NCBI GenBank assembly: GCA_964610305.1
Contig: CAZSVL010000001.1
Span: forward strand, 6,083 to 70,082
Reading direction: 5' to 3'
Source of the DNA: an uncultured Gammaproteobacteria bacterium
GTDB taxonomy: Bacteria > Patescibacteriota > Patescibacteriia > Magasanikbacterales > JBBTXJ01
Length of the DNA stretch: 64,000 nt
Part shown: positions 14,105-33,162 of the stretch, one piece after another
How positions within the stretch are numbered: the first letter of the stretch is position 1
Layout: each line of letters begins with the position of its first letter
Program-made: the position numbers and the translations under genes
The notes under the pieces: model-generated
What the model was told of the DNA's origin: nothing
The model's database searches: none
The model's input: the letters and a program-made list of their open reading frames with translations, nothing else

Positions 14105-14112
14105 AAAGTTTG

Positions 14113-15525: not shown

Positions 15526-15592
15526 GGATGGTTATCTTAGCGCAGCAAGCGGACCCTGGCAACCAGATAAGGGGATAGCATGTGCACTGACT

Positions 15593-16669: not shown

Positions 16670-16699
16670 TTTCTGACTATGCTTAAATAGGAGGTAAGC

Positions 16700-17295: not shown

Positions 17296-17340
17296 TACCC
17301 CAGTTTCTGGGGTTTTTTTATTCATCGCGAGAAAAACCCG

Positions 17341-17503
17341 GCCGCGGCGCGGGCGTCATCCCGGAATTTTGCGCAGCAAAATATCCGGGATCTCAAGAAC
17401 GCTTTGCCGCAGGTGTTTTTACTTGAGATCCCGGGTCAAGCCCGGGATGACAAGATGCGAAGCATTTTAGAAAAAGATACCACGGCCGTGAGGCCGTGGA
17501 GTT
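17341..17503. repeat. composite intergenic repeat, copy B (about 165 bp), twin of 671-834; ends at the dinB stop codon
   Basis: Type-1 hairpin 17355-17394, type-2 hairpin (rev) 17422-17454, tail ...GACAAGATGCGAAGC...ACCACGGCCGTGAGGCCGTGGAGTTTCATTTAAG. Confidence 0.7.
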
Positions 17504-18820
17504 TCATTTAAGAGGTCTCGCTAGAAGAGGAATTCCAATACGCTGCCTCAACGTTTCTCCTTTAAAGAGGGTTTTTTTACGCAGGCCAGACTCATGGCGT
17601 TCGTGCGTGCCGTCTGGTCCTTTTTGCACTTTTTGTGCGGCGCCCATAAAGACGGTGTGTTTGCCGTATTTTTTGTCTAAATCATCCACGGCGTCAAAAA
17701 TCCTATCTAATTTATGGGTGCGATTAGTGTCAGAGAATAAATCTAGCTGCACCGTTTTCTCATCTTTTAGTTTGTGAAGAGCTACGCTGGTGGATCTATA
17801 AAAGGTGTCTTTTTTAAAGAGTTTGTCATACGCTGCTCGTGCAGCGGCTATAACATCTACGGGGTTATTGCTGGCATGGGCCAATGTAACAGATGCGCCG
17901 CGTCTACTAAAGTTTTTTTTGTGGAGCGCAAAGGTAACCTTTGGGCATACTAAATTCATGCGCCTGGCTTTTATACACGCGTTTTCTATATTTCTACATA
18001 GATGCGCAAAGACCAGCTCTTTATCTGAGCTGCTAGGAGAGAAGGTTTTTTTCTTACGAATAGATTGGCGTGGCTTGGGTGGCGCATCGGTAACGGAGTA
18101 TATCAGCCGTCCGTTAAGCTCATGCCAAATTTCCTGGTGAGGTTTAGTAAGATAGCGCATGACCCAGTCTTCATCCTTTTTTGCGAGAGTTAGTGCGTCG
18201 CGAATGCCCATAATACGCAGATATTCATGTGTACGCGGACCAATGCCCCATATATCTTTTGGATGTGTGTCTTTAAGGAATTCATGAATTTTGCGGCCGG
18301 GAATTTGCGTGATGCCAAAAGGTTTTTTCCACTTGCTGGCCACTTTTGAAAGTACTTTTGTGGGAGCCAAACCTAAGGAAAACGTCATGCCCAGCTCTTT
18401 GTAAAGTGTATCCTGCAGCGTTTTAAGAATTTTAGGAAAGCTCATGCGTAGTGGTCTGCGCATGCCGGTGAGGTCCGCAAAGCATTCATCTATGCTGTAT
18501 TCTTCAACGGTGTGTGTGTACCGGCGGACAATATCAAAAAAACGCTGAGAAAAGAGGCTGTAACTTTCATAATCTGAAGGAACAAAAATAACATCGGGGC
18601 AGAGCTTTTTAATAGTGTGATATGGCATGGCGCGCGTAACGCCCGCGGCTTTTGCCTCATAAGAAATAGAGGCTGCAATACCGCGTTCTTTTCCGGTAAT
18701 AACGGGCTTACCCTTCCACGCAGGATTAAGCGCTTGCTCGCAAGAAGCAAAAAAAGCATCGCCATCTATATGCAAAATGGCGCGTGGATAAGAGCTAAGC
18801 ATGAGTGGTTGGGTAGGCAT
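17504..18820 (-). CDS. dinB: Y-family DNA polymerase IV (DinB)
   Basis: ILHIDGDAFFASCEQALNP catalytic N-terminus, SIDECFADLTG, little-finger region; start taken at the MPTQPL ATG. Confidence 0.85.
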   Translation of the reverse strand: MPTQPLMLSSYPRAILHIDGDAFFASCEQALNPAWKGKPVITGKERGIAASISYEAKAAGVTRAMPYHTIKKLCPDVIFVPSDYESYSLFSQRFFDIVRRYTHTVEEYSIDECFADLTGMRRPLRMSFPKILKTLQDTLYKELGMTFSLGLAPTKVLSKVASKWKKPFGITQIPGRKIHEFLKDTHPKDIWGIGPRTHEYLRIMGIRDALTLAKKDEDWVMRYLTKPHQEIWHELNGRLIYSVTDAPPKPRQSIRKKKTFSPSSSDKELVFAHLCRNIENACIKARRMNLVCPKVTFALHKKNFSRRGASVTLAHASNNPVDVIAAARAAYDKLFKKDTFYRSTSVALHKLKDEKTVQLDLFSDTNRTHKLDRIFDAVDDLDKKYGKHTVFMGAAQKVQKGPDGTHERHESGLRKKTLFKGETLRQRIGIPLLARPLK

Positions 18821-18915
18821 GTTTTCCACTTGACAGATGGTCGAAGGTGAAGTATATTGGATACACAAATGGCTTCGGCCTCCGAGACCTCGCACACCCG
18901 TGCGAGGATCGTTTT

Positions 18916-19314
18916 TTATATAAAACTTTTAATTTTTTTCTTTATTTCTTCGAATTCATCTTTTGGTAGCGTACGGATTTTTCTTAATAAACGTTTGGTG
19001 CTGATTAGTTTTAATTGCGAGAGGATAAGTGTGTAAGTCTTATTTTTGTATATCGTTTCATGATAATATTTTCCTTGTTTAATTTTAGTACTTAACGGGA
19101 TTACCCATAAAAGATGCGGATTAAAACCTTTTAGAACAAGGGCAGGTCTTTGAAATGAGGCACCTTTTCCGTCCTGCTCGTGGCCCAAGTTTACTCCAAA
19201 ACTACACCACCAAATTTCTCGTTTTTGATAGAAGATAGTAGATCCTTTAATTTTTTGTTGCAGTCGTATTTTTAGCTTTGTCCATTGAACTATCTCATTT
19301 ATTTTTTTACTCAT
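18916..19314 (-). CDS. PemK/MazF-family endoribonuclease toxin-like protein (132 aa) with no adjacent antitoxin
   Basis: REIWWCSFGVNLGHEQDGK...RPALVL, then IPLSTK and a C-terminal helix, parallel the PemK/MazF motifs (GEIWLVSLDPTAGHEQQGTRPVLIV...P.T...); lies between lexA and dinB. Confidence 0.6.
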   Translation of the reverse strand: MSKKINEIVQWTKLKIRLQQKIKGSTIFYQKREIWWCSFGVNLGHEQDGKGASFQRPALVLKGFNPHLLWVIPLSTKIKQGKYYHETIYKNKTYTLILSQLKLISTKRLLRKIRTLPKDEFEEIKKKIKSFI

Positions 19315-19319
19315 ACCAG

Positions 19320-19880
19320 CTAGTACTTCCGCACCACACCAATAACCACCGCTGCAATATTAAGCTCTTCTTCTGGAATTATATTTTCAAATGATTTATT
19401 TTCTGCTTGCAGATACACTTTTTTTCCAGACTTGCGTAGGCGTTTAAGGGTCCATGCGTGGTCCACCTCTGCAATAACAATGTCTCCGTCTGTGGCGCTG
19501 CGCCCGCGCTCTGCCAGCACCATATCTCCTGGCATAATGCCCGCCTCAGACATACTCATGCCCGATACTTTAAGCATAAACGTACTCTCTGGACGCTCCA
19601 GTAGCCATTGATCCAAGCTAAGGGTGTCCACGAGCTCTTCTTCTGCGGCAGAGGGAAATCCTGCTTCTATGGATCCTAAAACCGCCAGCTCTCCCAATCG
19701 ATGGGGGAGCAGCTTGCCTTGCGTGTCCTTTTTTAAAAACCCTTCATCTAAAAGTTTGCGTACCACCTTATAAGCCGCGTTTTTAGATTTAAACCCAAGC
19801 AGCTGCGCAATTTCACCGTAGCTGGGCATGCGTCTGTTTTTTTTATAAAACGAATGAATTTTATGAAGATGTTTTGGCAT
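19320..19880 (-). CDS. lexA: LexA repressor (S24 peptidase)
   Basis: N-terminal winged HTH (SYGEIAQLLGFKSKNAAYKVVRKL), AV^LG cleavage region, Ser (VSGMSMSEAG) and Lys (WTLKRL) catalytic dyad. Confidence 0.9.
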   Translation of the reverse strand: MPKHLHKIHSFYKKNRRMPSYGEIAQLLGFKSKNAAYKVVRKLLDEGFLKKDTQGKLLPHRLGELAVLGSIEAGFPSAAEEELVDTLSLDQWLLERPESTFMLKVSGMSMSEAGIMPGDMVLAERGRSATDGDIVIAEVDHAWTLKRLRKSGKKVYLQAENKSFENIIPEEELNIAAVVIGVVRKY

Positions 19881-19970
19881 AAAAAAGTCCGTGCTAAGTT
19901 TACGCAGGAGCGGGGTGGCCCTTTGGCGCCTGCGTAAATTCAGAAAGGAGTTGAAAAAGGAGCTAAAAAT

Positions 19971-19999
19971 AGTATAGTAAACGATCGTTCACCATGCAA
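19971..19999 (-). promoter_or_regulatory. putative lexA promoter (-35 TTGCAT, 17-nt spacer, -10 TATACT) with a Cheo-box-like palindrome in the spacer
   Basis: Minus strand reads TTGCAT GGTGAACGATCGTTTAC TATACT; TGAACGATCGTTTA matches 7/8 of GAAC-N4-GTTC; the leader holds a 10-bp inverted repeat TTTACGCAGG...CCTGCGTAAA (19898-19938). Confidence 0.35.
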
Positions 20000-20019
20000 G
20001 TGGATAACTCCCCAAGGTA

Positions 20020-20048
20020 TTGACAAAAAAGCGTATATATGCTATACT
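20020..20048 (+). promoter_or_regulatory. cspA promoter TTGACA-N17-TATACT, followed by a roughly 135-nt 5' UTR
   Basis: TTGACA at 20020-25, TATACT at 20043-48; the long leader is typical of cold-shock mRNAs. Confidence 0.45.
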
Positions 20049-20188
20049 CTGCGCAAGCAAAAAGTGATGCCTTTTGGATAGAAATGTAGTCAGTTTCGTC
20101 CCGGTAGTCGTTTTTGCCGGATTTACTCATTTCCGTTTTGAGCAGAGGGTAGGAAACTGCCGTTTGGTCAAAGCGCCATTATCAAAAT

Positions 20189-20389
20189 ATGGCACAAGGA
20201 ACCATTAAGAAGCTTACCGACAAAGGCTTTGGTTTTATCACCCAAGAGGGTCAGGACCAGGATCTTTTCTTCCACCACAGTGGACTTCAGGGTATTACCT
20301 TTGAAGAGCTTCGTGAAGGTGACGCAGTAACCTTTGAAGTCGAAGAGGCTGAAAAGGGACCTCGCGCAGTAAACGTTGCGCGCGCGTAA
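20189..20389 (+). CDS. cspA: cold-shock protein (CspA family)
   Basis: GTIKKLTDKGFGFITQEGQDQDLFFHHSGL... (RNP1 KGFGFI, RNP2 FFHHS); 66 aa. Confidence 0.9.
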   Translation: MAQGTIKKLTDKGFGFITQEGQDQDLFFHHSGLQGITFEELREGDAVTFEVEEAEKGPRAVNVARA

Positions 20390-20400
20390 CACTTTTTCAA

Positions 20401-20423
20401 AAACCGGCTTAGGCCGGTTTTTG
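20401..20423 (+). terminator. rho-independent terminator after cspA
   Basis: AAACCGGC-TTA-GCCGGTTT plus T-run. Confidence 0.6.
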
Positions 20424-20429
20424 GTTTAT

Positions 20430-20453
20430 AAAAAAAGCGGCTGGTAGGCCGCT
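20430..20453 (-). terminator. terminator for the convergent minus-strand gene
   Basis: AGCGGC-TGGTAG-GCCGCT hairpin with an A-run on the plus strand (T-run on minus). Confidence 0.5.
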
Positions 20454-20458
20454 GAGAG

Positions 20459-21160
20459 TTACGCACGCACAATCAGATGCTGCTTGCGCTTTCCAAAACC
20501 TGAGCTTTTGATTTTGAAAATCGCTTCTGTGCTGCACGCTGTATTTGGACACGCGTGAACATATCCTCTTTCTCCCAATCCAATAAAACTTAGCCACCCA
20601 ACAGCTTTGGTTCCTCTAAACTCAAGTTCATGTTGGGTTTGTGTCCTTCCGCCAAAAGGATCGGTGTTTATGCCACCGCAGTCAGGATTGCCGCAAAGAG
20701 GCTCAAGATTCATGATATCATCAAGCAGTGCAAGCATGACATGGTCACTGATTTTTGGCTCAGGACACTTGTGCCTTGGCTCTTCTGCCCACCTAGCAAA
20801 TCCTCTTTTGGGATCGCTTTCTGAATGGATGGGGACATAGATTTTGCCACCAACATAGACGCCGTCTTTGGGCAGGGGGCCTGCAGCACGGCATCTGATT
20901 TCATCAAACAGAATCCAGACGTGAACTCCCACAGACATTACAAGTGCAAGCCAAGCGTACATTTCAAAGTCGGGGCTCCACTGTCTTTCTTTGATAAGTA
21001 CCTGGCCTACATATTCCATACCAGAAAGCAGCGCAAATATTAAAGCAAACGCCAATACCGTACAAACGCCAATCATCTTGAGCAGGTATGTAAGCTCTCC
21101 CTCGTGGAGTTTTTTAATTGCGGTGACCAAAATGACCTCCTGTTGAATTAAATTAAGCAT
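20459..21160 (-). CDS. hypothetical membrane protein with two C-x4-C pairs (CGNPDC, CPNTAC)
   Basis: 233-aa ORF, two N-terminal TM helices, Cys-rich C-terminal region; family not recognised. Confidence 0.45.
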   Translation of the reverse strand: MLNLIQQEVILVTAIKKLHEGELTYLLKMIGVCTVLAFALIFALLSGMEYVGQVLIKERQWSPDFEMYAWLALVMSVGVHVWILFDEIRCRAAGPLPKDGVYVGGKIYVPIHSESDPKRGFARWAEEPRHKCPEPKISDHVMLALLDDIMNLEPLCGNPDCGGINTDPFGGRTQTQHELEFRGTKAVGWLSFIGLGERGYVHACPNTACSTEAIFKIKSSGFGKRKQHLIVRA

Positions 21161-21233
21161 AGCGAATTTTCAGTACATTGTCAAGGCTTGACAACATACT
21201 GTTGCTGTGTCACCCTATCTGCAGGAGGTTCGT

Positions 21234-22223
21234 ATGGAAAAAGTATATCCGGCTAAATTGAAGCAGGGAGATGTAGTAGCGGTGGTTGCGCCGTCTAGGT
21301 CCTTGTCTATTGTTTCATCTGAAAATAGGCATATTGCAAAGCGCAGGTTCGCAGAGGAACTGGGTTTGGGAGTGGAAATTAGCTCCCTTACGAGAGATTG
21401 CGATGATTTTTTGTCTACCCCGGTTGTAAAGCGTATCGCCAACTTGCATGGCGTTTTCAGAAATTCAAAGGTTGGTGCTATCTTTACCGCTATCGGCGGA
21501 TTTAGCTGTAATCAGCTACTAGATTATCTGGATTGGGATCTTATTGCCGCAAATCCAAAGGTGTTGTGCGGTTACTCAGACATTACGGCGCTTCAAAATG
21601 CCATTTTTGCTAGGACCGGTTTGGTGACGTATTCTGGACCGCACTTTTCTACGTTTGGCCAGGAGCATATGGACCCTTATACGGTTTCCGCCTTAAGAGC
21701 TTGTCTGTTTGAAGAAGAGCCCATTACGGTTCAGCCTTCCGATCACTGGAATGATGACCGATGGTGGGAGGACCAAGAAGGCAGAACCAGCAGACCAAAT
21801 GAGGGTTGGTGGGCTATGCAATACGGAAGAGCGCAGGGAACGCTTTTGGGCGGAAATCTGGGCACCTTTGCGCTGCTCTTTGGAACAAGATACATGCCAC
21901 CCCTGAAAGACAGCGTGCTTTTTTTAGAGGACGATGAGATTGAGACACCTGCAATGTTTGATAGATATCTGCAGGCGCTGATCCATCAGCCGGGTTTTGA
22001 TGGCGTGCAAGCATTGGTTATTGGACGATTCCAGATTGGAAGCAAAATGACCAGAGAGCTTTTGGCACAGATTATTGAGAGTAAGCCAGAGCTGCGCGGT
22101 TTGGCCGTCATTGCCAACGTAGATTTTGGCCATACCAATCCCATGATTACCTACCCCATTGGAGGAGAGGTATCTGTGTTTGCCTCCTCAACAGAAGCAA
22201 AGATTGAAATTCTAAGGCATTAG
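21234..22223 (+). CDS. LD-carboxypeptidase (peptidase S66, LdcA-like)
   Basis: VVAVVAPSRSLS, GYSDITALQNAI (nucleophile Ser), C-terminal His/Glu region; AGGAGG then the ATG at 21234. Confidence 0.8.
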   Translation: MEKVYPAKLKQGDVVAVVAPSRSLSIVSSENRHIAKRRFAEELGLGVEISSLTRDCDDFLSTPVVKRIANLHGVFRNSKVGAIFTAIGGFSCNQLLDYLDWDLIAANPKVLCGYSDITALQNAIFARTGLVTYSGPHFSTFGQEHMDPYTVSALRACLFEEEPITVQPSDHWNDDRWWEDQEGRTSRPNEGWWAMQYGRAQGTLLGGNLGTFALLFGTRYMPPLKDSVLFLEDDEIETPAMFDRYLQALIHQPGFDGVQALVIGRFQIGSKMTRELLAQIIESKPELRGLAVIANVDFGHTNPMITYPIGGEVSVFASSTEAKIEILRH

Positions 22224-22226
22224 AAC

Positions 22227-22251
22227 CAGCGTCCTTTTGGGCGCTTTTTTA
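22227..22251 (+). terminator. rho-independent terminator after the LD-carboxypeptidase gene
   Basis: AGCGTCC-TTTT-GGGCGCT hairpin plus T6. Confidence 0.55.
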
Positions 22252-22282
22252 ATAAAAAAACGACCCGATTGGATCGTATATG

Positions 22283-22951
22283 TTACGCTTGCGCTTTTGC
22301 GCCCAGCACGTCTTTTTCAAACTCTTTAATAGCAGCACGGAACTGTTCATCTGTTGCGTGCTCGCCTCTATTATGCTGTTCTTTAAACTTATCACTCATG
22401 AATCGGGAAAAAAATTCCACGTGCTGCTCTGTTTCCAGTTTTCTTGTAAAGAGTTCAACCATGTTTCCCTGGGCAGGGCTGCAAATATGAATTTTATGAG
22501 TCCTGTTGTCTTCCTGCAGCTGATTGAGTTCATTGTTAAAGATTCCCGCAAACATGGCACCTAAAATGGTATGCATAAACGCGGTAAGAAATGCAACAAA
22601 GATGGAGAAGAGAGGCTCGTTTTGCCCAATCTCTCTTGCACTCTTTGGCACATGCTTTTTGCTCATGAGCTGCGGCGTAAGCGCCAAAAAGACTGCAATG
22701 ATGGCCTCTGCCATGTGATCAAAGTATGGGCTTATTAGCTTGTACTCATCAAAATCAAAGGCGATAGGCGCGGATACGTCCCAGTTGCCATAATCACGAG
22801 CGCTACGCAGTGCGTAATACACATCTAGCTGAGAAACCTTTTTTTTGAAATGAGTAACATCAGCTTCATCCATCTGAAGCGGCCGCTCTATCTGCTCTGA
22901 AATGCTCTGATTCACACCCTCTACAAAATCTTTACCAGACCAGGTTATCAT
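22283..22951 (-). CDS. hypothetical protein (222 aa) with a central hydrophobic segment
   Basis: Long ORF with coding-like composition; no recognisable motif. Confidence 0.4.
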   Translation of the reverse strand: MITWSGKDFVEGVNQSISEQIERPLQMDEADVTHFKKKVSQLDVYYALRSARDYGNWDVSAPIAFDFDEYKLISPYFDHMAEAIIAVFLALTPQLMSKKHVPKSAREIGQNEPLFSIFVAFLTAFMHTILGAMFAGIFNNELNQLQEDNRTHKIHICSPAQGNMVELFTRKLETEQHVEFFSRFMSDKFKEQHNRGEHATDEQFRAAIKEFEKDVLGAKAQA

Positions 22952-23120
22952 GTCACCTCCTTTCTTTTGAGGGTAGCATAGGGGATTTTGGTGGGTTTGT
23001 CAAGGGTGACAGGATCTTGGTACGATAAAAAATGATCGAATGAAAAAGAGTAACACTATAAAAGGAAAATTATGGATGCACGGCGGCAAACACGCGCCGG
23101 GCTCATCCAGCACGCAGCAG

Positions 23121-23375
23121 ATGAAAGGCGCGTGGTATTTTTTTGCGTTGCCAAGGGGGGTGTCCGCACAGATTAAAAAAGCGTACGCGCCAGCAGCTCG
23201 CGGCTGGGGATCCATCCGTGTCACCGCCACTATCGGTAGCACCACATGGAAAACATCAATTTTTCCTGATAGCAAGTTGGGAGCTTACGTGCTGCCCGTG
23301 AAGGCGGCGGTTCGGAAGGCGGGGGGCGTGGGGGATGGGGATAGGATTAGTGTGAGATTGCTGATAGGTGTTTGA
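23121..23375 (+). CDS. DUF1905 (YdeI-like) domain protein
   Basis: MKGAWYFFALPRGVSAQI...GWGSIRVTATIGSTTWKTSIFP matches the DUF1905 beta-barrel pattern; start moved to the internal ATG at 23121. Confidence 0.55.
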   Translation: MKGAWYFFALPRGVSAQIKKAYAPAARGWGSIRVTATIGSTTWKTSIFPDSKLGAYVLPVKAAVRKAGGVGDGDRISVRLLIGV

Positions 23376-23419
23376 ATTAAAAAAGCGATCCGAGCGGATC
23401 GCTGATGTGCTTAAATAAT

Positions 23420-24712
23420 TTACAGCAGATGTACAACGGGAGCTGTCATGTGGGTCTTATTTATGTGGTGATTTTCAACGAAAGGCCACTGTGCAAGCTG
23501 CCATCGTGGTATGTCGGGATAGATTATTGAGCAAAAATCAATGCCTGTATCTACTCTATAAGGCAATCCACTCATTTGAAAGCTGTATTCGCCGCTAGAG
23601 GCGCGCCATGGATGTTGGGCCATCATCATGATAATTTCCAGGCCGGCCGCATTAGGGCCTATATCTTGCTTTAGGATGCCGCCAGGATTTGCGCACGTGT
23701 CAACAATTGCCCACTGCAGTCCCGGAATCCATGGAGTTTTATGATGGGGCTGCAGATTTTTTAGGTCAAAGTCGCTAATAAGCGAGAATGCCGGCGGTCC
23801 GGTTGCCGAAAAGCTCCATATTCCGGGTTTGGGAAGATGTGCCCAGCGAAAGTATGCCTGCATGGTTCGATGATACCCAGATACGCCATCTTTGTCTGGG
23901 AGTCGCGTGATGAGGATTACACTTTTGCTTGGATCAGAGACAGCCGGTGGTTTCTTCAGCGATTCAAACCAATGATTTGGTATATCCCATTCATCTATTT
24001 CGGCTCGGTGCCTGATCAGTTCCGGAAGATGCTCTGCAAGAGTATCTTTCATGGCCTCTGCATCCTGATTGCCGCGTAGATTTTTTTCATCTAGGCTGAT
24101 GCCAACCTTTACAACGCGCAGCGCCACGTCTTTTGTAGGATCGTCTAAGGTGTGCACGATACGATTTCGTAAAGAGCGCATAGATAGGTGAATGTCGCGA
24201 TTGGCGTAAATGACCATTACGGCTTGGAAACGCTCTGCGGCATCTTCGCTAGAAGCCTGTTGGCGTAAATGTCTCCAATTTAGTTTTACAGGAGCGCTTG
24301 TATGTTGCGTATTTTGTTGCCGCTCAATGTCCCAACTCTCTGAAGGAACAATAAATTTGGGATTGTCAAAATAGCTACAAAGGCAGTGGTAGATTTCTAC
24401 TGCCTGCCTGGCCTCCTGTTGCGTGGGCTCGTAGGCGTTATGAACCACGTGGGCGCGAAAGTCAATAACCCAAGATAAGGCGTTTTTTGCAGTTTCGCTC
24501 CATCCACCAGCAAGTGTAGTGTGACCCACATCTACAAATGACTTAAACACGCTCATTTTAGGATCGGTGATCCACGCAATTGGATCGTCAACGGTATCTG
24601 CGTACTGTCTGCATAACGCCTGTTCAAAGAGCACGCTGGCCTTTACTACGGCGCGATAGCGGTGTGCTGGGTTGTCACTCTGAGCATTAGCTAGCAGTTG
24701 CTGCCATGTCAT
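23420..24712 (-). CDS. predicted defence/abortive-infection-type protein with two HEPN-like Rx4H motifs (N-terminal DUF4145-like domain) and an unassigned C-terminal domain
   Basis: FRAHVVHN and LRNRIVHT (R-x4-H) inside helical domains; N-terminal 120 aa resemble DUF4145; about 430 aa from the MTWQQLL start. Confidence 0.45.
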   Translation of the reverse strand: MTWQQLLANAQSDNPAHRYRAVVKASVLFEQALCRQYADTVDDPIAWITDPKMSVFKSFVDVGHTTLAGGWSETAKNALSWVIDFRAHVVHNAYEPTQQEARQAVEIYHCLCSYFDNPKFIVPSESWDIERQQNTQHTSAPVKLNWRHLRQQASSEDAAERFQAVMVIYANRDIHLSMRSLRNRIVHTLDDPTKDVALRVVKVGISLDEKNLRGNQDAEAMKDTLAEHLPELIRHRAEIDEWDIPNHWFESLKKPPAVSDPSKSVILITRLPDKDGVSGYHRTMQAYFRWAHLPKPGIWSFSATGPPAFSLISDFDLKNLQPHHKTPWIPGLQWAIVDTCANPGGILKQDIGPNAAGLEIIMMMAQHPWRASSGEYSFQMSGLPYRVDTGIDFCSIIYPDIPRWQLAQWPFVENHHINKTHMTAPVVHLL

Positions 24713-24810
24713 TTTGCCTCCTTTTTGTCTGTGGTGAGTGTATGCGGTTTTTGGGGGGTTGTCAAGGGGTTTTTGTGGCTTGTCGGTTTCTTCGTGATAT
24801 AATATTCGGC

Positions 24811-25479
24811 ATGGAGGGTGCCCAAAAATACACAATAAAGCAGCTACCGCGTGTAGAAAGGCCGCGGGAGAAGTTGATTGCCTATGGGCCGGGGAAGCTT
24901 TCTAACTCTGAACTTTTGGCGATTTTGTTGCGGACGGGGAAGAGGGGGGAGAATGTTGTTGAGATGGCGCGGAAGATTTTGCAGCGGTTTGGTAGCGGCG
25001 GATTGCATAATGCGTCTTTTAAAGATTTGGTGCAATATGTCGGGCTCGGTCCGGCAAAGGCATGTGAGATTGTGGCGTGTTTTGAGCTTGGAAAACGTTT
25101 GCTCAAAGACAAAAAGACGGTTTTGATAATGTCCGCGCAAGACGTTTGGTAGCAGGTGGCGGATATTCGAGGCAACAAAAAAGAGCATTTTGTAGTTTTT
25201 TATCTGGATACGCGGAATCAGCAGATTAAAAGGGAGATAATTTCAGTCGGAACGTTAAACGCCAGCCTGGTACACCCACGTGAAGTATTCGAACCGGCAA
25301 TCCGTTACAACGCCGCACACGTTATCGTCGCGCACAATCATCCGTCAGGAGATCCGGAGCCGTCACAAGAAGATTTCACTTTAACTCGGCGGCTTGTGGA
25401 TGCGGGGAAAATTCTAGGAATTGCACTGTTGGATCACGTGATTATGACAAAAGAATTTTATTTTAGCATAAAATTATAA
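24811..25479 (+). pseudogene. radC: radC (RadC/UPF0758 JAB-domain protein) interrupted by one in-frame TAG (25150-25152)
   Basis: N-half LSNSELLAILLRTGKRGENVVEMARKIL (HhH) and C-half HFVVFYLDTRNQ...HPREVF...AHNHPSGDPEPS (JAMM motif) are in the same frame, separated only by TGG-TAG-CAG. Confidence 0.6.
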
Positions 25480-25481
25480 TT

Positions 25482-25510
25482 TTGTTACCTATTGACATGA
25501 TAGGTAACAA
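25482..25510 (+). promoter_or_regulatory. 11-bp perfect inverted repeat TTGTTACCTAT-N7-ATAGGTAACAA overlapping a TTGACA -35 box; putative antitoxin operator/promoter
   Basis: TTGACA 25492-97, 17-nt spacer, TATACT about 25515-20, then ATG 25530. Confidence 0.5.
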
Positions 25511-25529
25511 AATATATACTTACTACATT

Positions 25530-25793
25530 ATGAAACAGACAGATAAGCCGTATCTTTCAACCGCGGAGCTCGCAGATTTGCTTGGCATAAGTAGGGTAGA
25601 GGTTTTTCGAAAAATTAAAAAAGGTCTTATTCCCGCTGAAAAAAAAGGTAGGAATTTTTTGATTCTTAAAAAAGATATTGAAAATTTGTTGAGTGGTACA
25701 TTGACCGCTGGTAAAAAGCGTCAAATCGATATTGCGGTTGATAAGACTTTAGCGGAATATGGAGAGACTCTAAAGCTACTTGGGCAAGAATAG
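25530..25793 (+). CDS. HTH (excisionase/MerR-like HTH_17) DNA-binding protein; putative antitoxin
   Basis: LSTAELADLLGISRVEVFRKIKKGLIPAEKKGRNFLI helix-turn-helix; 1-nt gap to the Doc gene. Confidence 0.55.
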   Translation: MKQTDKPYLSTAELADLLGISRVEVFRKIKKGLIPAEKKGRNFLILKKDIENLLSGTLTAGKKRQIDIAVDKTLAEYGETLKLLGQE

Positions 25794-25794
25794 C

Positions 25795-26226
25795 ATGGCT
25801 AAAATATCGTCTATAACAGTTGCAGATATAGAGCATCTTGCTCATCGGCTTGCTAAAAAGATGTTTGAGTGGAACGAGCCGATTCCTGATTTTGGGACGC
25901 GTTACCCTAATAAGCTTGAAAGCTGTATAGCTGTGCCATTTCAGACATTTTCGAAGCGGATATTATATAAGGGTCTTTTGGAAAAAGCAGCCATACTTTT
26001 CTATCTGATGATCAAAAACCATCCGTTTCAGAATGGTAACAAGCGTATTGCCATGACGACGTTGTTTGTTTTTCTTCATATAAATGGCAAGTGGTTGGAG
26101 GTTGATAATCAGAAATTGTATAATTTTGCAAAGTGGGTTGCTGCGAGTGACGCAGAAGTAAAAGATGCGACCGTGTTAGCGATAAAGGATTTCTTGAAAA
26201 AGCATCTGGTTAATTTAGAGAAATAA
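25795..26226 (+). CDS. Fic/Doc-family toxin (death-on-curing type)
   Basis: HPFQNGNKRIAMTTLFVFLHINGK matches the Fic/Doc core HxFx(D/N)GNKR. Confidence 0.75.
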   Translation: MAKISSITVADIEHLAHRLAKKMFEWNEPIPDFGTRYPNKLESCIAVPFQTFSKRILYKGLLEKAAILFYLMIKNHPFQNGNKRIAMTTLFVFLHINGKWLEVDNQKLYNFAKWVAASDAEVKDATVLAIKDFLKKHLVNLEK

Positions 26227-26229
26227 TTT

Positions 26230-27678
26230 ATGTTCGAACAATCATTTAAAAATATTGATAACGCGCTCCGTAAAGACGCGGGGGTGAGCAGTGAGCTTGA
26301 TTATGTGGAGCAAACCTCATGGGTTTTGTTTTTGAAATATCTTGATGATTTGGAGCGGGACAAGGAGAAAGAGGCTGCGCTTGCTGGGAAGACGTATGAG
26401 TATATTATTGATCCAAAGTATAGGTGGGAGGCGTGGGCTGTGCCAAAGACGGCTGATGGCAAGTTGGATCATAATACCGCGCTCTCTGGGGATGATCTTA
26501 AGGACTTTGTGGATCATGAGTTGTTTCCGTATTTAAAAAAGTTCAAAAGTGAGGCAGAAAGTCCGGATACCATTGAATACAAAATCGGGGAGATTTTTAG
26601 TGAGCTTAAGAATAAAATACAAAGCGGGTATACGTTGCGTAGCATTTTGGATATTGTTGACGGCATGCGTTTCCGATCGCAAGAGGAAAAGCATGAGCTC
26701 TCTCATCTCTACGAGGGCAAAATCAAGAACATGGGCAATGCTGGCAGAAACGGTGGGGAATACTACACGCCGCGTCCGCTTATTAAGACGATTGTCAAAG
26801 TTGTTGCTCCAGAGATTGGCAACACAATTTATGATGGTGCTGTTGGCTCAGCGGGTTTTTTGGTGGAAGCGTTTGAGTATTTGAAAGAAAGCAAAGATCT
26901 TTCAGTTAAAGATTTTGAAACACTTCAGAAAAAAACTTTTTACGGCAAAGAAAAGAAATCGCTTGCGTATATCATCGGCATCATGAATATGATTTTGCAC
27001 GGCATTGAGGCGCCGAACATTATCCACACAAACACACTTGCAGAAAACATCGCTGATTTTCAAGAAAAAGATCGATACGATATTGTCCTTGCTAATCCGC
27101 CGTTTGGAGGAAAAGAGCGCAAAGAGGTGCAGCAGAATTTTCCAATCAAAACCGGCGAGACTGCTTTTCTGTTCCTCCAACATTTCATAAAAATCCTCAA
27201 AGCTGGAGGTCGGGGTGGTGTGGTTATAAAAAACACTTTCCTTTCCAATGCCGATAACGCCGCCATTTCACTCCGCAAAATGCTTCTAGAAAGCTGCAAA
27301 CTTCATACCGTTTTAGATTTGCCCGGCGGAACATTTTTGGGCGCCGGAGTAAAAACTGTTGTCCTTTTTTTCGAAAAAGGCACACCAACAAAAAAAATCT
27401 GGTACTACCAACTAAACCTCGATAGAAACCTAGGCAAAACAAACCCACTCAACGAAAAGGACCTTGCAGAATTTGTAGAACTACAAAAAACCAAAGCCGA
27501 CTCTGAAAATTCCTGGACTTTGGATGTGAAAGATATTGATCCGCGGATTTTTGATCTGTCAGTAAAGAATCCGAATGGTGGTGGGGAGATTGAGTTGAGA
27601 AGTCCAGAGGAGATTTTGGAGGAGATGAGGGGGTTGGATAAGGAGAGTAGTCGTATTTTTATCGATATTGAAGAATAG
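26230..27678 (+). CDS. hsdM: type I restriction-modification N6-adenine DNA methyltransferase subunit HsdM
   Basis: N-terminal HsdM_N, SAM motif I, motif IV LANPPFGGKE; 482 aa. Confidence 0.9.
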   Translation: MFEQSFKNIDNALRKDAGVSSELDYVEQTSWVLFLKYLDDLERDKEKEAALAGKTYEYIIDPKYRWEAWAVPKTADGKLDHNTALSGDDLKDFVDHELFPYLKKFKSEAESPDTIEYKIGEIFSELKNKIQSGYTLRSILDIVDGMRFRSQEEKHELSHLYEGKIKNMGNAGRNGGEYYTPRPLIKTIVKVVAPEIGNTIYDGAVGSAGFLVEAFEYLKESKDLSVKDFETLQKKTFYGKEKKSLAYIIGIMNMILHGIEAPNIIHTNTLAENIADFQEKDRYDIVLANPPFGGKERKEVQQNFPIKTGETAFLFLQHFIKILKAGGRGGVVIKNTFLSNADNAAISLRKMLLESCKLHTVLDLPGGTFLGAGVKTVVLFFEKGTPTKKIWYYQLNLDRNLGKTNPLNEKDLAEFVELQKTKADSENSWTLDVKDIDPRIFDLSVKNPNGGGEIELRSPEEILEEMRGLDKESSRIFIDIEE

Positions 27679-27684
27679 GATTTT

Positions 27685-28737
27685 ATGATTTCTGATTCCT
27701 CGCTAAAGGAGTTGCTGAGGCTCAAGAGAGGTGGATATTTATACCATCGTGAAAGTCAAACCTTGGAATTCAAAGAGTCGTTTAGTCTTAGTGCGTTAGC
27801 AGATTACTTTCGCGATTTTGCTGCTTTTGCAAATAACAAGGGTGGTTATTTGGTTTTTGGCGTTAAGGATAGTCCAAATACGCTCGTCGGGCTGACCCCT
27901 AAATCTCAAAAGCAATTTGAAAAAGTAGATCCGGAAAAAATTTCCGGGTACCTTCTAGATATTTTTTCTCCAAATATCGATTGGCTTCAGAGGTCTATTA
28001 AAATTGCCTCTAAGCATTACGGTGTTTTTTACATACACGAAGCTAAAGTTAAGCCCGTGATAGCCAAAAAAGATGAGGGTAAAGACCAGGTCATAAAAAA
28101 TGGGGAAGTATATTACCGGTATGGTGGGAGAACGCAGAAGATACAATTTGCCGAGTTGGAAAATATTATTCAGAAAAGGTTAGAGTCACAGACACAGCAG
28201 TGGCAGAATCTCATTTCTAAAATTGCCAAGGCGGGCCCTTCGAATGCCGCGGTACTCGATACCGAAAGAGGTTTGATAGAAAAAAGTGATACACAGGTTC
28301 TGCTAATGGATGACAAGCTTGCCAAGAAGATAAAATTTGTAAAGGAGGGTGAATTTAGCGGCAAGGAAGGTGATTTGGCGTTACGGCTGGTTGGCGATGT
28401 GCTGCCTGTGAATCCCGTTGAGATTACAAAAATCAAGAAACAAAGACTCACTGAGGAATATCCGTACTCAGCTTTAGAATTGGTCGAGGAAGTTAGAAAG
28501 AAGTTGTCCGGGGCAATGCAAGGTGATGTATGGAAAGTGATTGCGGAAAACAGCCTAAAAAGTAACACAGATTATTCTGCTTACAATTTTCGCAACAAAA
28601 GGCAAGAGGATAAGTTCAAGGAATCTGGAGAATTACCTAAATCAATTCCCAATATATATAATGATGATGCGGTTGATTTCATAGTAAAAGTTTTGAAAGA
28701 CAAAAAGAATGAAAATAGAGAAGAAACAAAAAAATAA
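27685..28737 (+). CDS. AlbA_2 / Schlafen-like (divergent AAA, putative DNA-binding) domain protein inserted between hsdM and hsdS
   Basis: RESQTLEFKESFS...AFANNKGGYLVFGVKD matches the AlbA_2 (PF04326-type) N-terminal signature; C-terminal 200 aa unassigned. Confidence 0.55.
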   Translation: MISDSSLKELLRLKRGGYLYHRESQTLEFKESFSLSALADYFRDFAAFANNKGGYLVFGVKDSPNTLVGLTPKSQKQFEKVDPEKISGYLLDIFSPNIDWLQRSIKIASKHYGVFYIHEAKVKPVIAKKDEGKDQVIKNGEVYYRYGGRTQKIQFAELENIIQKRLESQTQQWQNLISKIAKAGPSNAAVLDTERGLIEKSDTQVLLMDDKLAKKIKFVKEGEFSGKEGDLALRLVGDVLPVNPVEITKIKKQRLTEEYPYSALELVEEVRKKLSGAMQGDVWKVIAENSLKSNTDYSAYNFRNKRQEDKFKESGELPKSIPNIYNDDAVDFIVKVLKDKKNENREETKK

Positions 28738-29842
28738 CTGGCAAACAAAAAAGCTTGGAGATGTGATCAAGTTAGAATACGGAAAGCCGCTCCCAAAATC
28801 TAAAAGGAGATTAGATGGTCTTTATCCAGTGTATGGCGCTAATGGAGTAAAAGCCAAAAGTGATGAGTATTATTTTTACAAACCGAGCATTATTGTTGGT
28901 AGAAAAGGTACGGCTGGAGCATTAACCTTGACAGAGGAAAGATTTTGGCCTCTAGATGTTACGTATTTCGTGACGTTTGATGAAAAAAAGTATGATTTGA
29001 AGTTTCTTTTTGGTCTTTTGAGCACACTGGATTTGCCGCGTTTTGCGAAGGGTGTGAAGCCTGGAATAAATAGAAATGATATCCACGCATTGAGCGTCAA
29101 AGTACCGACCCTCCCAGAACAAAAACGCATTGTAAAAATTCTTGATCAGACGTTTGAAAAAATAGAAAGAGCAAAAGAGAATACGCAAAAGAATCTACAA
29201 AATGCACGAGAGCTTTTTGAGTCATATTTACAGGAGGTTTTTGCAAATCCGGGGGAGGGTTGGGAAGAGAAACGGTTGGGCGCGGTGTATGATGTGCGTG
29301 ATGGGACGCATGCCTCACCAAAATATCACAAAGAAGGATATGCTCTGATTACTTCAAAAAATTTAAAGAATGATACTTTAAATTTTGATAAAATAAGATA
29401 TATTTCAGAAAAAGATTATTTGAAGATAAATGAAAGGAGTAAGGTTGATGTTGGGGACGTTTTGTTTGCCATGATTGGTACAATTGGTAATCCTGTTGTA
29501 ATTAAAGATGAGCCTAATTTTGCGATAAAGAATGTTGCTCTGTTTAAGGTTCCACAAGATCAGGATAGTTTTTTCTTAAAGTACTACCTGGATTCTAAAT
29601 TTGTGGGAGATAAAATGTCCAAGGAGGCAAAAGGAACTACACAAAAGTTCGTTGGGTTGGGGTATCTAAGAAATTTTGAAATTAAAATACCCAAGAAGCC
29701 AACACAGAAAACCATCGTCAATAAACTTGACTCTCTCTCAGAAAAAACCAAAAAACTAGAATCAATCTATCAAAAAAAGCTGGATAATTTGGAAGAGTTG
29801 AAGAAGTCTGTGCTCAAGAAGGCGTTTAGTGGGGAATTATGA
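28709..29842 (+). CDS. hsdS: type I restriction-modification specificity subunit HsdS (two target-recognition domains)
   Basis: Duplicated TRD plus conserved helices (LPEQKRIVKILD..., C-terminal LKKSVLKKAFSGEL). Confidence 0.85.
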   Translation: MKIEKKQKNNWQTKKLGDVIKLEYGKPLPKSKRRLDGLYPVYGANGVKAKSDEYYFYKPSIIVGRKGTAGALTLTEERFWPLDVTYFVTFDEKKYDLKFLFGLLSTLDLPRFAKGVKPGINRNDIHALSVKVPTLPEQKRIVKILDQTFEKIERAKENTQKNLQNARELFESYLQEVFANPGEGWEEKRLGAVYDVRDGTHASPKYHKEGYALITSKNLKNDTLNFDKIRYISEKDYLKINERSKVDVGDVLFAMIGTIGNPVVIKDEPNFAIKNVALFKVPQDQDSFFLKYYLDSKFVGDKMSKEAKGTTQKFVGLGYLRNFEIKIPKKPTQKTIVNKLDSLSEKTKKLESIYQKKLDNLEELKKSVLKKAFSGEL

Positions 29843-30072
29843 GAATTAATCTATAAATATATGAACCAAAATAAAACATGCCAGACTTGTGGGGTGGAAT
29901 TAAAGCACTCTAAATTCGCCAGAAGAACGAATGAGGGTCAGGATTTCGTGAGCGCACAAGAGAATCTTGCTTGCCGAAACTATCCAGAATGTCCAAGGGC
30001 AGAGAAAGAAACGGAAGGGGATATGGATTTTGATTGACAAAATCGTAGTTTTGTGCTAAGTTAAGGCGATTT

Positions 30073-32403: not shown

Positions 32404-32406
32404 AAT

Positions 32407-33099: not shown

Positions 33100-33118
33100 A
33101 TCAAAACACCAAGCTTTT

Positions 33119-33162
33119 CTTGAGATCCCGGATATTTTGCTTCACAAAATTCCGGGAGACAG
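33119..33162 (-). repeat. solo type-1 hairpin repeat (variant ...CCGGGAGACAG)
   Basis: CTTGAGATCCCGGATATTTTGCTTCACAAAATTCCGGGAGACAG; followed by a terminator-like hairpin at 33176-33203. Confidence 0.65.

What the first reader, a model, noticed from the sequence alone, without database searches (positions are those of the whole stretch)
23420..24712. 430-aa protein with two HEPN-like Rx4H motifs and an unassigned C-terminal domain
- The N-terminal 120 aa resemble DUF4145, a HEPN-family domain frequently linked to restriction-modification or abortive-infection loci; its motif here is FRAHVVHN.
- A second helical segment carries LRNRIVHT.
- The roughly 200-aa C-terminus is Trp/Pro-rich with no motif I can assign: GYHRTMQAYFRWAHLPKPGIWSF...WIPGLQWAIVDTCANPGG.

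Tandem HEPN modules are typical of RNase toxins such as Cas13, Abi proteins and Las1-like proteins. This architecture may be a new variant.
Basis: inference. Interest (0 to 1): 0.6.

Follow-up and report, generated by a model that had tools for sequence, protein, structure and literature searches.

The report
Orphan gene with duplicated HEPN-like module
A well-formed 430-codon gene beside a restriction-modification island encodes a protein with no detectable relative in public data; its front half is an internal duplication that weakly matches the catalytic motif of HEPN RNases, so it is a plausible but unproven single-gene anti-phage RNase.

Summary
The ORF (23420..24712, minus strand, 430 aa) is real. 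It has a promoter-like site, a Shine-Dalgarno sequence, a terminator, and host-like codon usage in all three thirds. Both quoted motifs and the Trp/Pro-rich C-terminus are present.

Two Rx4H motifs alone are at chance level (P=0.33). Three results go beyond chance:
- aa 1-125 and 144-240 are an ancient internal duplication (Smith-Waterman 60 vs 24.8±4.2; 0/3000 shuffles).
- Both motif helices map gaplessly onto the same motif region of Pfam DUF4145. The hit is 18 bits, E=0.003, below the 23.1-bit cut-off.
- A PADLOC CARF-HEPN model hits at E=5e-5.

In-silico mutation shows these scores come almost entirely from R179, R182, N183 and H187, with less from R86 and H91. Copy 2 is therefore the canonical one and copy 1 is degenerate.

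The protein is a strict orphan: only itself among 1.84 billion cluster representatives, and nothing in the other collections searched. AlphaFold2 failed (pLDDT 34 and 47), so the HEPN fold is untested and motif conservation cannot be checked.

The gene is monocistronic and divergent from a RadC–HTH–Fic/Doc–type I R-M–Cas4-like operon. Best reading (~0.4): a pseudo-dimeric DUF4145/HEPN abortive-infection RNase with a novel sensor domain. Interest is moderate to low.

The parts
23420..24712 (-). Coding sequence, 430 aa plus TAA stop; the orphan protein
   Evidence: ORF list and translation. The codon-usage log-odds is +0.165 bits/codon in this frame and -0.31 to -0.58 in the other five. It is positive in all three thirds.
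24737..24765 (-). Sigma-70-like promoter, TTGACA-17-TACACT (10/12 matches)
   Evidence: This is a consensus match only; the region as a whole is not enriched for such sites.
24717..24724 (-). Shine-Dalgarno AAAGGAGG, 4 nt before the ATG at 24712
   Evidence: Read directly from the sequence. It favours the ATG over the upstream TTG at 24835.
24338..24712 (-). Module copy 1 (aa 1-125): helical and DUF4145/HEPN-like, with a degenerate motif
   Evidence: Internal duplication. Pfam stretch aa 74-109 aligns to profile positions 53-88. Helices from AlphaFold2: 3-10, 15-38, 44-49, 51-66, 73-91, 98-116 (pLDDT 50-72).
24440..24457 (-). Motif 1, R86-A-H-V-V-H91, at the end of a predicted helix
   Evidence: R86A costs 2.7 bits and H91A abolishes the DUF4145 hit. 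In the PADLOC model R86A costs 0 and H91A 1.5 bits.
23987..24283 (-). Module copy 2 (aa 144-242): a shortened duplicate carrying the canonical motif
   Evidence: aa 143-192 vs aa 1-45 gives Smith-Waterman 57.5 against 21.0±4.4 (0/3000). The motif helices give 38 against 18.1±3.6 (P=0.0007). Pfam stretch aa 175-202 aligns to profile positions 58-85.
24152..24178 (-). Motif 2, R179-S-L-R182-N183-R-I-V-H187 (both R-x3-N-x3-H and R-N-x3-H)
   Evidence: Pfam DUF4145: R179A -4.5, R182A -3.6, N183A -5.5 bits; H187A loses the hit. PADLOC CARF_HEPN: R182A -6.7, N183A -6.2, H187A -7.8 of 20.6 bits. Chance of the composite motif is 0.0022.
23423..23986 (-). C-terminal domain (aa 243-430): Trp/Pro/His-rich, predicted largely non-helical, no relatives
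   Evidence: Composition. No Pfam, NCBIfam, PADLOC or PDB match. No homologue at E<=10. No internal repeats. No transmembrane segment. The coding frame is supported.
23376..23403 (-). Intrinsic terminator: 8-bp stem AGCGATCC/GGATCGCT plus a T-run, 17 nt after the stop
24808..33099 (+). Context only: the divergently transcribed, tightly packed operon RadC (with an in-frame TAG) - HTH_17 - Fic/Doc - HsdM - SLFN/AlbA_2 - HsdS - HsdR - Cas4-like PD-(D/E)XK
   Evidence: Pfam and PADLOC scans. GC is 37-41% here, 49% over the target gene, and about 44-45% across the window.

Best explanation
The gene is a real, self-contained transcription unit encoding a lineage-specific three-part protein.

**Anatomy**
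- aa 1-125 and aa 144-242 are two diverged copies of one helical module that derives from a DUF4145-type HEPN domain.
- aa 243-430 is a Trp/Pro/His-rich domain with no known relatives.

**Proposed mechanism (inferred)**
- The two modules pack against each other as an intramolecular HEPN pseudo-dimer.
- Copy 2 supplies the canonical catalytic set R179/R182-N183-H187. Copy 1 supplies H91 and R86.
- Together they form one composite, metal-independent RNase site, as HEPN dimers do and as Cas13 does within a single chain.
- The C-terminal domain acts as the sensor or autoinhibitor that keeps the RNase silent until a phage cue appears.
- The protein would then work as a single-gene abortive-infection backup beside the type I R-M system.

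**Shown here**
- The gene is real.
- The duplication is real.
- The motif residues are the ones HEPN profiles score.
- The motifs sit at the end of predicted helices.
- The neighbourhood is a defence island.

**Inferred only**
- The HEPN fold.
- Pairing of the two modules.
- RNase activity.
- The sensor role of the C-terminus.
- A role in defence.
For: **The gene is real**
- Promoter-like site, AAAGGAGG, terminator and codon usage all support it.

**The duplication is real**
- Smith-Waterman 60 against 24.8±4.2 for shuffles (0/3000) and a maximum of 41 against 267 real protein windows.
- BLASTP gives E=9e-6.
- The paralogous alignment RaHVVHnayePTqqeArqaVei / RnRIVHtlddPTkdvAlrvVkv keeps R, H and PT at about 26% overall identity (P=0.0007). 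This is the only available substitute for a conservation test.

**HEPN profile matches**
- Pfam DUF4145 scores E=0.0031, with both stretches on profile positions 53/58-85/88.
- PADLOC CARF_HEPN scores E=5e-5.
- The reversed sequence gives neither hit.
- Mutating R, N or H removes 2.7-7.8 bits each.

**Fit to published HEPN features**
- R179...H187 has the same R-x7-H spacing as the catalytic R146/H154 of the DUF4145 RNase RAZR (PMC13017515).
- R182-N183 fits the published rule that a polar residue follows the R. The motifs lie at the end of a helix, followed by a short loop and another helix, as described for HEPN helix 3/4 (PMC3710099).

**Context**
- DUF4145 genes are known to sit in R-M operons and to act as single-gene Abi effectors (PMC3710099, PMC13017515, PMC10799925).
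- This gene abuts a type I R-M island that also carries Fic/Doc, SLFN/AlbA_2 and Cas4-like genes.
Against: - **Weak matches.** Every profile match is weak and carried almost entirely by 3-4 motif residues. The flanking sequence adds about 0 bits to the PADLOC score. The Pfam score is below its gathering threshold, and each half alone scores nothing.
- **Chance.** Two bare Rx4H motifs are expected by chance. Even the composite motif (P=0.002 per protein) will turn up somewhere in a large genome scan that selects for it.
- **Degenerate copy 1.** It lacks the profile-62 Arg and the Asn.
- **Incomplete copy 2.** It lacks about 50 residues (helix 2 and the insert), so a complete four-helix HEPN core is not evident.
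- **No fold evidence.** AlphaFold2 gave pLDDT 34 and 47. Foldseek gave only generic helical bundles at E>=0.4.
- **No PDB hit.** No HEPN chain in the PDB is hit by sequence or by a two-copy profile.
- **No homologues.** Conservation, co-occurrence and selection cannot be assessed.
- **No partner gene.** There is no antitoxin or MNT partner.
Confidence: 0.4

Rival explanations
1. The protein is not HEPN at all. It is a fast-evolving, lineage-specific protein whose duplicated helical module happens to contain R/N/H residues in a HEPN-like spacing. Its function is unrelated to RNA cleavage, for example a scaffold, a regulator, or a cell-envelope or host-interaction factor of a CPR-type episymbiont.
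For: - The profile scores are essentially motif-only.
- The Pfam hit is below threshold and disappears when the halves are scanned separately.
- The Rx4H count is at chance level.
- There is no structural or PDB support.
- The window holds several other Pfam-less ORFs.
- The lineage is so poorly sampled that even a conserved enzyme finds relatives at only about 50-55% identity. Orphan status alone therefore says little.
Against: - Two independent HEPN-family profiles pick the same residues, at E=0.003 and E=5e-5. The reversed sequence picks none.
- The composite motif has P=0.002.
- R and H are retained at equivalent positions in both diverged copies.
- The motifs sit at helix ends.
- The neighbourhood is defence-related.
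Confidence: 0.33
2. The protein is HEPN-derived but catalytically dead or repurposed. The duplicated module would be a degenerate HEPN used for RNA or nucleotide binding, or as a regulatory or adaptor domain, as in the non-catalytic HEPN families. Any activity would then reside in the unknown C-terminal domain.
For: - Copy 1 lacks the canonical Arg and Asn.
- Copy 2 is truncated relative to copy 1.
- The upstream acidic Ex3[KR] element is absent from copy 1. In copy 2 it appears only as D157-x3-R161, in the first long helix.
- Many HEPN families have lost the motif and act as binding domains (PMC3710099).
- The His-, Cys- and Asp-containing C-terminal domain could hold an unrecognised active site.
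Against: Copy 2 keeps the full R-x2-R-N-x3-H set. That would not be expected to survive without selection in a protein this diverged. Nothing identifies an enzyme in the C-terminus.
Confidence: 0.2
3. The ORF is non-functional: a decaying pseudogene, a chance ORF, or an assembly chimera.
For: - It is a singleton sequence seen on one assembly and on an identical Logan contig of the same sample.
- The neighbouring RadC carries an in-frame stop, so gene decay or sequence errors do occur here.
- Its codon score is at the low end of the window's genes.
Against: - 430 codons without a stop at 49% GC.
- The correct frame scores +0.165 against -0.31 to -0.58 for the other five frames, and it is positive in all three thirds.
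- A strong Shine-Dalgarno sequence, a promoter-like site and a clean terminator are present.
- The internal duplication is still recognisable at protein level.
Confidence: 0.07

Closest known systems
DUF4145 (PF13643) HEPN family, including the RAZR / PD-T7-4 abortive-infection RNase
   Same: - Both motif helices align to the motif end of the DUF4145 profile.
- R179...H187 has the R-x7-H spacing of the RAZR catalytic pair R146/H154.
- Both are single-gene effectors combining HEPN with another domain.
- Both are found beside R-M systems (PMC13017515; PMC3710099).
   Different: - The score is below the family threshold.
- The domain is present twice in tandem rather than once.
- There is no zinc-finger domain: 5 Cys in total and no CxxC.
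- The PADLOC library (5027 models) returned only CARF_HEPN and SspF for this protein.
- The extra domain is C-terminal and novel.
- RAZR forms its site between protomers and oligomerises on phage rings. Here the two halves are in one chain.
BxaP (BREX-associated Abi protein: N-terminal DUF4145 plus a C-terminal HEAT-like domain)
   Same: Both have an N-terminal DUF4145-like region followed by an unrelated C-terminal domain. Both are rare single genes adjacent to a DNA-modification-based defence system (PMC10799925).
   Different: - BxaP's DUF4145 is a strong HHpred hit (98.5% probability), while this one is marginal.
- BxaP's C-terminus is helical and HEAT-like, while this one is Trp/Pro-rich and predicted mostly non-helical.
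- The neighbour is type I R-M rather than BREX.
- No sequence similarity was found.
Cas13 and other proteins with two HEPN domains in one chain
   Same: Both have two Rx4H-bearing modules in one polypeptide that could build one composite RNase site intramolecularly.
   Different: - There is no CRISPR array anywhere in the window.
- The PADLOC library returned no CRISPR-effector model other than the CARF_HEPN match.
- The protein is 430 aa, whereas Cas13 proteins are roughly 800-1300 aa (my own knowledge).
- The two modules here are paralogues of each other by recent-enough duplication to be detected by sequence.
CARF-HEPN ancillary RNases (Csm6/Csx1 type; PADLOC model PDLC01974)
   Same: This is the best-scoring profile (E=5e-5). 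Its conserved R-N-x3-H columns align to R182-N183-x3-H187.
   Different: - Only profile positions 301-417 of 476 (the HEPN part) are matched.
- There is no CARF domain.
- There is no type III CRISPR context.
- The score comes almost wholly from three residues.
HepT-MNT (DUF86/HEPN) toxin-antitoxin pairs
   Same: The RNxxxH-type motif resembles that of HepT toxins (my own knowledge), and the gene sits among mobile or defence genes.
   Different: There is no adjacent nucleotidyltransferase antitoxin. There is no DUF86 or HEPN Pfam hit. The protein is about three times larger.

Membership tests
DUF4145 (PF13643) | Whole-protein score at or above Pfam's gathering cut-off (23.1 bits) | tested here: not met
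   18.0 bits, E=0.0031, summed over two stretches. Each half alone gives no hit.
DUF4145 (PF13643) | Conserved R / N / H at profile positions 62 / 66 / 70 (R-x7-H, as in RAZR R146/H154), in copy 2 | tested here: met
   The gapless stretch aa 175-202 aligns to positions 58-85, placing R179, N183 and H187 on positions 62, 66 and 70. Mutating them costs 4.5 bits, 5.5 bits, or the whole hit. The RAZR residues are from PMC13017515.
DUF4145 (PF13643) | The same conserved R / N / H in copy 1 | tested here: not met
   The gapless stretch aa 74-109 aligns to positions 53-88, placing I83, A87 and H91 on positions 62, 66 and 70. Only the His is kept. R86 sits on position 65.
HEPN superfamily | Rx4-6H motif with a polar residue (N/D/H) immediately after the R | tested here: met
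   R182-N183-R-I-V-H187 fits fully. R86-A87-H-V-V-H91 has the spacing but Ala after the R. The rule is from PMC3710099. Spacing alone is at chance level. RNxxxH has P=0.044 and the composite motif P=0.0022.
HEPN superfamily | [quoted passage not shown] | tested here: inconclusive
   The predicted helices 73-91 and 178-188 end at the motif His and are followed by helices 98-116 and 193-212. These secondary structures come from low-confidence models.
HEPN superfamily | Four-helix up-and-down bundle of two alpha-hairpins (the fold) | tested here: inconclusive
HEPN superfamily | Second conserved acidic residue, typically Ex3[KR], in helix 2 | tested here: inconclusive
   There is no [ED]x3[KR] in copy 1. 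Copy 2 has D157-x3-R161, but in its first long helix. The feature is not universal in the superfamily (PMC3710099).
HEPN superfamily | Metal-independent RNase activity dependent on the R and H | not testable with these tools
   This needs an expression or toxicity assay and an in-vitro cleavage assay.
Cas13-type dual-HEPN CRISPR effector | Adjacent CRISPR array and a crRNA-binding architecture | tested here: not met
   No short-spaced direct repeats occur in the 64 kb. The PADLOC library returned only CARF_HEPN and SspF.
CARF-HEPN (Csm6/Csx1) | N-terminal CARF sensor domain | tested here: not met
   The PADLOC alignment covers only profile positions 301-417 of 476. No CARF family appears in Pfam.
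RAZR (PD-T7-4) | N-terminal Cys4 zinc-ribbon domain | tested here: not met
   Five Cys in total, at positions 34, 110, 112, 340 and 394; no CxxC.
HepT-MNT toxin-antitoxin | Adjacent minimal nucleotidyltransferase gene | tested here: not met
   The neighbours are DUF1905 (convergent) and RadC (divergent). There is no small partner ORF.

The most novel reading that the evidence does not exclude
This would be an independently evolved, self-contained dual-HEPN RNase. A DUF4145-type domain duplicated in tandem, and one copy was shortened, so that a single 430-aa chain forms the composite active site that other DUF4145 proteins build only by dimerising. That pseudo-dimer is fused to a completely new Trp/Pro/His-rich sensor fold. 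The protein would operate as a one-gene abortive-infection system beside a type I R-M island in a barely sampled, probably CPR-type bacterium.
Probability: 0.2. Interest if true: 0.6.

Novelty: new variant of a known kind. Interest (0 to 1): 0.35.

Why it matters
If the reading is right, this would be a compact natural example of a DUF4145/HEPN domain made self-sufficient by tandem duplication. That is the same solution Cas13 uses, but at about 430 aa. It would be joined to a sensor domain with no known fold, in a lineage whose anti-phage repertoire is almost unexplored.

It would add an architecture to the single-gene HEPN Abi effectors (RAZR, BxaP) and offer a small RNase scaffold. If the reading is wrong, the case shows that Rx4H motifs in His- and Arg-rich orphan proteins are not evidence by themselves.

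Because there is only one sequence, and neither a fold nor conservation can be obtained, the claim is currently a hypothesis rather than a finding.

Tried and rejected
**Homologue searches (all empty)**
- The word-indexed search of 5.8 billion proteins with the full length found only the query itself.
- The N-terminal half and the C-terminal domain alone found nothing at E<=10.
- An exhaustive phmmer run against 1.84 billion cluster representatives found only the query itself.
- tblastn against plasmids found nothing. Against phages it gave one hit at E=0.6, treated as noise.
- Scans of metagenome and viral contigs found nothing.
- tblastn against 111 loci fetched around LD-carboxypeptidase relatives showed neither a relative nor synteny.

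**Family and structure databases**
- NCBIfam gave no hit. PHROGs gave only E=0.056.
- PDB searches with the full protein, each module, and a two-copy profile gave only noise: DHFR, EspA, an S-layer protein and similar, all at E>0.1.
- The PADLOC SspF hit (E=6e-4, aa 124-181) was set aside. It is short, it covers mainly the linker and the first helices of copy 2 and stops before the Asn and His of motif 2, and only R179A, at its end, lowers it.

**Structure prediction**
- AlphaFold2 on the full length and on aa 1-242 gave low confidence.
- Foldseek against PDB and BFVD gave nothing significant.

**Other checks**
- I tried to obtain DUF4145 seed sequences or alignments from paper supplements for an hhalign test. 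None were held as text.
- I considered that the in-frame stop in RadC signalled an alternative genetic code. It is TAG, not TGA, and the target gene ends in TAA, so this was rejected.
- I looked for repeats within the C-terminal domain and found none.
- I looked for RNA families and tandem repeats on both strands of the locus and found none.
- I looked for island boundary repeats and tRNAs and found none.
- A paper search for the sample accession SRR8146441 found nothing.
Full report
**1. What is at the coordinates**

A single long ORF lies on the minus strand at 23420..24712 and encodes 430 aa with a TAA stop. A longer TTG-initiated version of 471 aa exists. The ATG at 24712 is the better start for two reasons. 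It is preceded by AAAGGAGG with a 4-nt spacer. The only good promoter-like site, TTGACA-17-TACACT at 24765..24737, lies downstream of the TTG.

Seventeen nucleotides after the stop there is a clean intrinsic terminator, with the stem AGCGATCC/GGATCGCT and a T-run.

Codon-usage log-odds were trained on the 27 other long ORFs of the window. The score is +0.165 bits/codon in the annotated frame and -0.31 to -0.58 in the other five frames. It is positive in each third of the gene: 0.21, 0.155 and 0.141. The window's other genes range from 0.14 to 0.30.

No RNA family, tandem repeat or competing ORF with coding signal overlaps the gene on either strand. The gene is real and monocistronic. It is convergent with a DUF1905 gene and divergent from RadC.

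**2. The observation itself**

Both quoted strings are present: FRAHVVHN at aa 85-92 and LRNRIVHT at aa 181-188.

The C-terminal 188 residues contain 4.3% Trp, 10.6% Pro and 5.3% His. Other long ORFs of the window have 1.5%, 4.2% and 2.3%.

The protein is rich in Arg (5.3%) and His (4.9%). Two Rx4H motifs are therefore what shuffling gives: mean 1.16, P(>=2)=0.33.

**3. What is above chance**

(a) Internal duplication.
- aa 1-125 against aa 141-240 gives a Smith-Waterman score of 60. Shuffles give 24.8±4.2 (0 of 3000), and 267 real 100-aa windows from other proteins of this region reach at most 41.
- BLASTP gives E=9e-6.
- The strongest part is the N-terminal helix pair: TWQQLLANAQSDNPAHRYRAVV against NWRHLRQQASSEDAAERFQAVM (57.5 against 21.0±4.4).
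- The motif helices also align: RAHVVHNAYEPTQQEARQAVEI against RNRIVHTLDDPTKDVALRVVKV (38 against 18.1±3.6, P=0.0007).
- The best single alignment puts motif 2 opposite aa 33-44 of copy 1 (ALCRQYADTVDDP). The simplest reconciliation is that copy 2 is copy 1 with roughly 50 residues deleted between two similar helix-loop segments. Those residues cover helix 2 and the insert. This is inference.

(b) Profile matches.
- Pfam reports only DUF4145, at 18.0 bits and E=0.0031, below the 23.1-bit gathering score, as two stretches.
- PADLOC reports a CARF_HEPN model at E=5e-5, covering aa 73-194 and profile positions 301-417 of 476.
- The reversed sequence hits neither.

(c) In-silico mutagenesis. The tools do not print these alignments, so I scanned point mutants.

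| Variant | Pfam DUF4145 (wild type 18.0 bits), | PADLOC CARF_HEPN (wild type 20.6 bits), |
|---|---|---|
| R86A | 15.3 | 20.6 |
| H91A | hit lost | 19.1 |
| R179A | 13.5 | 18.0 |
| R182A | 14.4 | 13.9 |
| N183A | 12.5 | 14.4 |
| H187A | hit lost | 12.8 |
| Quadruple mutant | hit lost | hit lost |

- The two Pfam stretches are gapless: aa 74-109 on profile positions 53-88, and aa 175-202 on positions 58-85.
- Profile positions 62/65/66/70 therefore correspond to I83/R86/A87/H91 in copy 1 and to R179/R182/N183/H187 in copy 2.

These numbers support two conclusions.
- The second motif is the canonical one. R179-x3-N183-x3-H187 has the R-x7-H spacing of the experimentally validated catalytic pair R146/H154 of the DUF4145 RNase RAZR (PMC13017515). 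R182-N183-x3-H187 is the classical HEPN RNxxxH, with the polar residue after the Arg (PMC3710099). Copy 1 keeps only the His, plus an Arg shifted by one helical turn.
- The profile scores are carried almost entirely by these few residues. In the PADLOC model the three losses sum to 20.7 of 20.6 bits, so the similarity is motif-level rather than domain-level.

By shuffling, RNxxxH has P=0.044 and the composite RxxRNxxxH has P=0.0022 in this protein. That is unlikely for one protein, but not negligible for a genome-wide scan that selects such motifs.

**4. Secondary and tertiary structure**

In both AlphaFold2 runs the motif His ends a helix (73-91 and 178-188). A short loop and another helix follow (98-116 and 193-212). 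This matches the published position of the motif at the end of HEPN helix 3 (PMC3710099).

The models are poor. Mean pLDDT is 34 for the full length and 47 for aa 1-242, with copy 1 at 50-72.

**5. Orphan status**

- The protein finds only itself in the word-indexed 5.8-billion-protein search.
- It finds only itself in the exhaustive phmmer search of 1.84 billion cluster representatives.
- The two halves searched separately at E<=10 find nothing.
- Plasmids, phages, viral contigs and JGI metagenome contigs give nothing.
- Its 90% cluster has one member, seen in NCBI (a 232-kb contig) and on one Logan contig. That contig is identical to window 20288..25040.

The lineage itself is barely sampled. 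The adjacent LD-carboxypeptidase finds nothing closer than 52-55% identity among 185,579 species representatives or the metagenome contigs. Its best hits are scattered over Patescibacteria/CPR phyla and some archaea. None of those 111 loci shares synteny or a faint relative.

Conservation of the motif and conservation of the neighbourhood therefore cannot be tested. The only surrogate is retention of R, H and PT between the two paralogous modules.

**6. The C-terminal domain (aa 243-430)**

- It is coding and has no transmembrane segment.
- It has no internal repeats.
- It matches no family or PDB sequence.
- It is predicted to be largely non-helical, at very low confidence.
- It remains unassigned.

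**7. Context**

The gene is divergent from a tightly packed plus-strand operon:
- RadC, interrupted by one in-frame TAG at 25150-25152
- HTH_17
- Fic/Doc
- HsdM
- a Schlafen/AlbA_2 protein (PADLOC PDC-S50, E=8e-8)
- HsdS
- HsdR (EcoEI_R_C type)
- a Cas4-like PD-(D/E)XK nuclease

GC content is mosaic: 49% over the target gene, 37-41% over the R-M genes, and about 44-45% overall.

To the left lie DUF1905, a Pfam-less 222-aa ORF and the LD-carboxypeptidase. There is no MNT, no CRISPR array, no tRNA and no phage gene nearby.

DUF4145 genes are documented in R-M operons and as stand-alone Abi effectors (PMC3710099, PMC13017515, PMC10799925, PMC10465359). The location therefore fits, although it is a single instance.

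**8. Most likely mechanism and rivals**

| Reading | Probability | Main point |
|---|---|---|
| Single-gene abortive-infection RNase | about 0.4 | Two DUF4145-derived modules pack as an intramolecular HEPN pseudo-dimer. Copy 2 gives R179/R182-N183-H187 and copy 1 gives H91/R86. The novel C-terminal domain gates the site. |
| Chance motif in an unrelated orphan protein | 0.33 | The profile scores are motif-only and there is no fold support. |
| HEPN-derived but non-catalytic or repurposed | 0.2 | Copy 1 is degenerate and copy 2 is truncated. |
| Non-functional ORF | 0.07 | Contradicted by the expression signals and codon usage. |

The fold, the pairing of the modules, the catalysis, the sensing and the defence role are inferred.

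**9. Comparison with known systems**

The protein would work like the DUF4145/HEPN Abi effectors RAZR and BxaP. In having two HEPN halves in one chain, it would work like Cas13. On membership, it fails or cannot be tested against each family considered:
- It fails the Pfam threshold for DUF4145.
- It lacks RAZR's zinc finger.
- It lacks the CARF domain of the best-scoring PADLOC model.
- It lacks any CRISPR context.
- It lacks an MNT partner.

It should not be filed as a member of any of these families. At most it is a divergent variant of the DUF4145-type HEPN kind.

**10. Verdict**

- Novelty is a new variant of a known kind, if the HEPN reading holds.
- Interest is moderate to low (0.35). 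The evidence is motif-level, there is a single sequence, and the decisive tests could not be run here. Those tests are HHpred, a confident structure and a mutant toxicity or RNase assay.

Noticed in passing
window 24808..25479 (+), stop at 25150-25152: The RadC gene (UPF0758_N plus the RadC JAB domain) is interrupted by a single in-frame TAG, and both halves stay in the same frame. This could be a pseudogene, a sequencing error or read-through. It is TAG rather than TGA, so it does not point to genetic code 25.
   Followed up: partly
window 25482..33099 (+): A tightly packed defence operon: HTH_17, Fic/Doc, HsdM, a 350-aa Schlafen/AlbA_2 protein inserted between hsdM and hsdS (PADLOC PDC-S50, E=8e-8), HsdS, HsdR with an EcoEI_R_C domain, and a Cas4-like PD-(D/E)XK nuclease right after hsdR. 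GC is 37-41% against about 44-45% for the window.
   Followed up: partly
window 17504..19880 (-): A DinB/ImpB-family polymerase, a PemK/MazF-like toxin and LexA lie head to tail on one strand. A MazF-type toxin is thus embedded in an SOS-type module, with no obvious antitoxin ORF between them.
   Followed up: no
window 20459..21160 (-), 22283..22951 (-), 33203..34141 (-): Three further ORFs of 233, 222 and 312 aa have no Pfam match and only noise in PHROGs. The region holds several lineage-specific genes.
   Followed up: no
window 21207..22223 (+): The LD-carboxypeptidase (Peptidase_S66) has no relative above 52-55% identity in the GTDB species representatives or JGI metagenome contigs. Its best hits are scattered across CPR/Patescibacteria phyla and some archaeal MAGs. 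The source genome is not among the GTDB r232 representatives.
   Followed up: partly
window 51161..51300 (+): This ribosomal protein L10 leader (Rfam RF00557, 51 bits) is the only Rfam hit above the gathering score in the window. No tRNA gene occurs in the whole 64 kb.
   Followed up: no
window 1..64000: Cumulative GC skew rises almost monotonically across the window, and most long genes are on the plus strand. This is consistent with a single replichore without an origin or terminus in the window.
   Followed up: no
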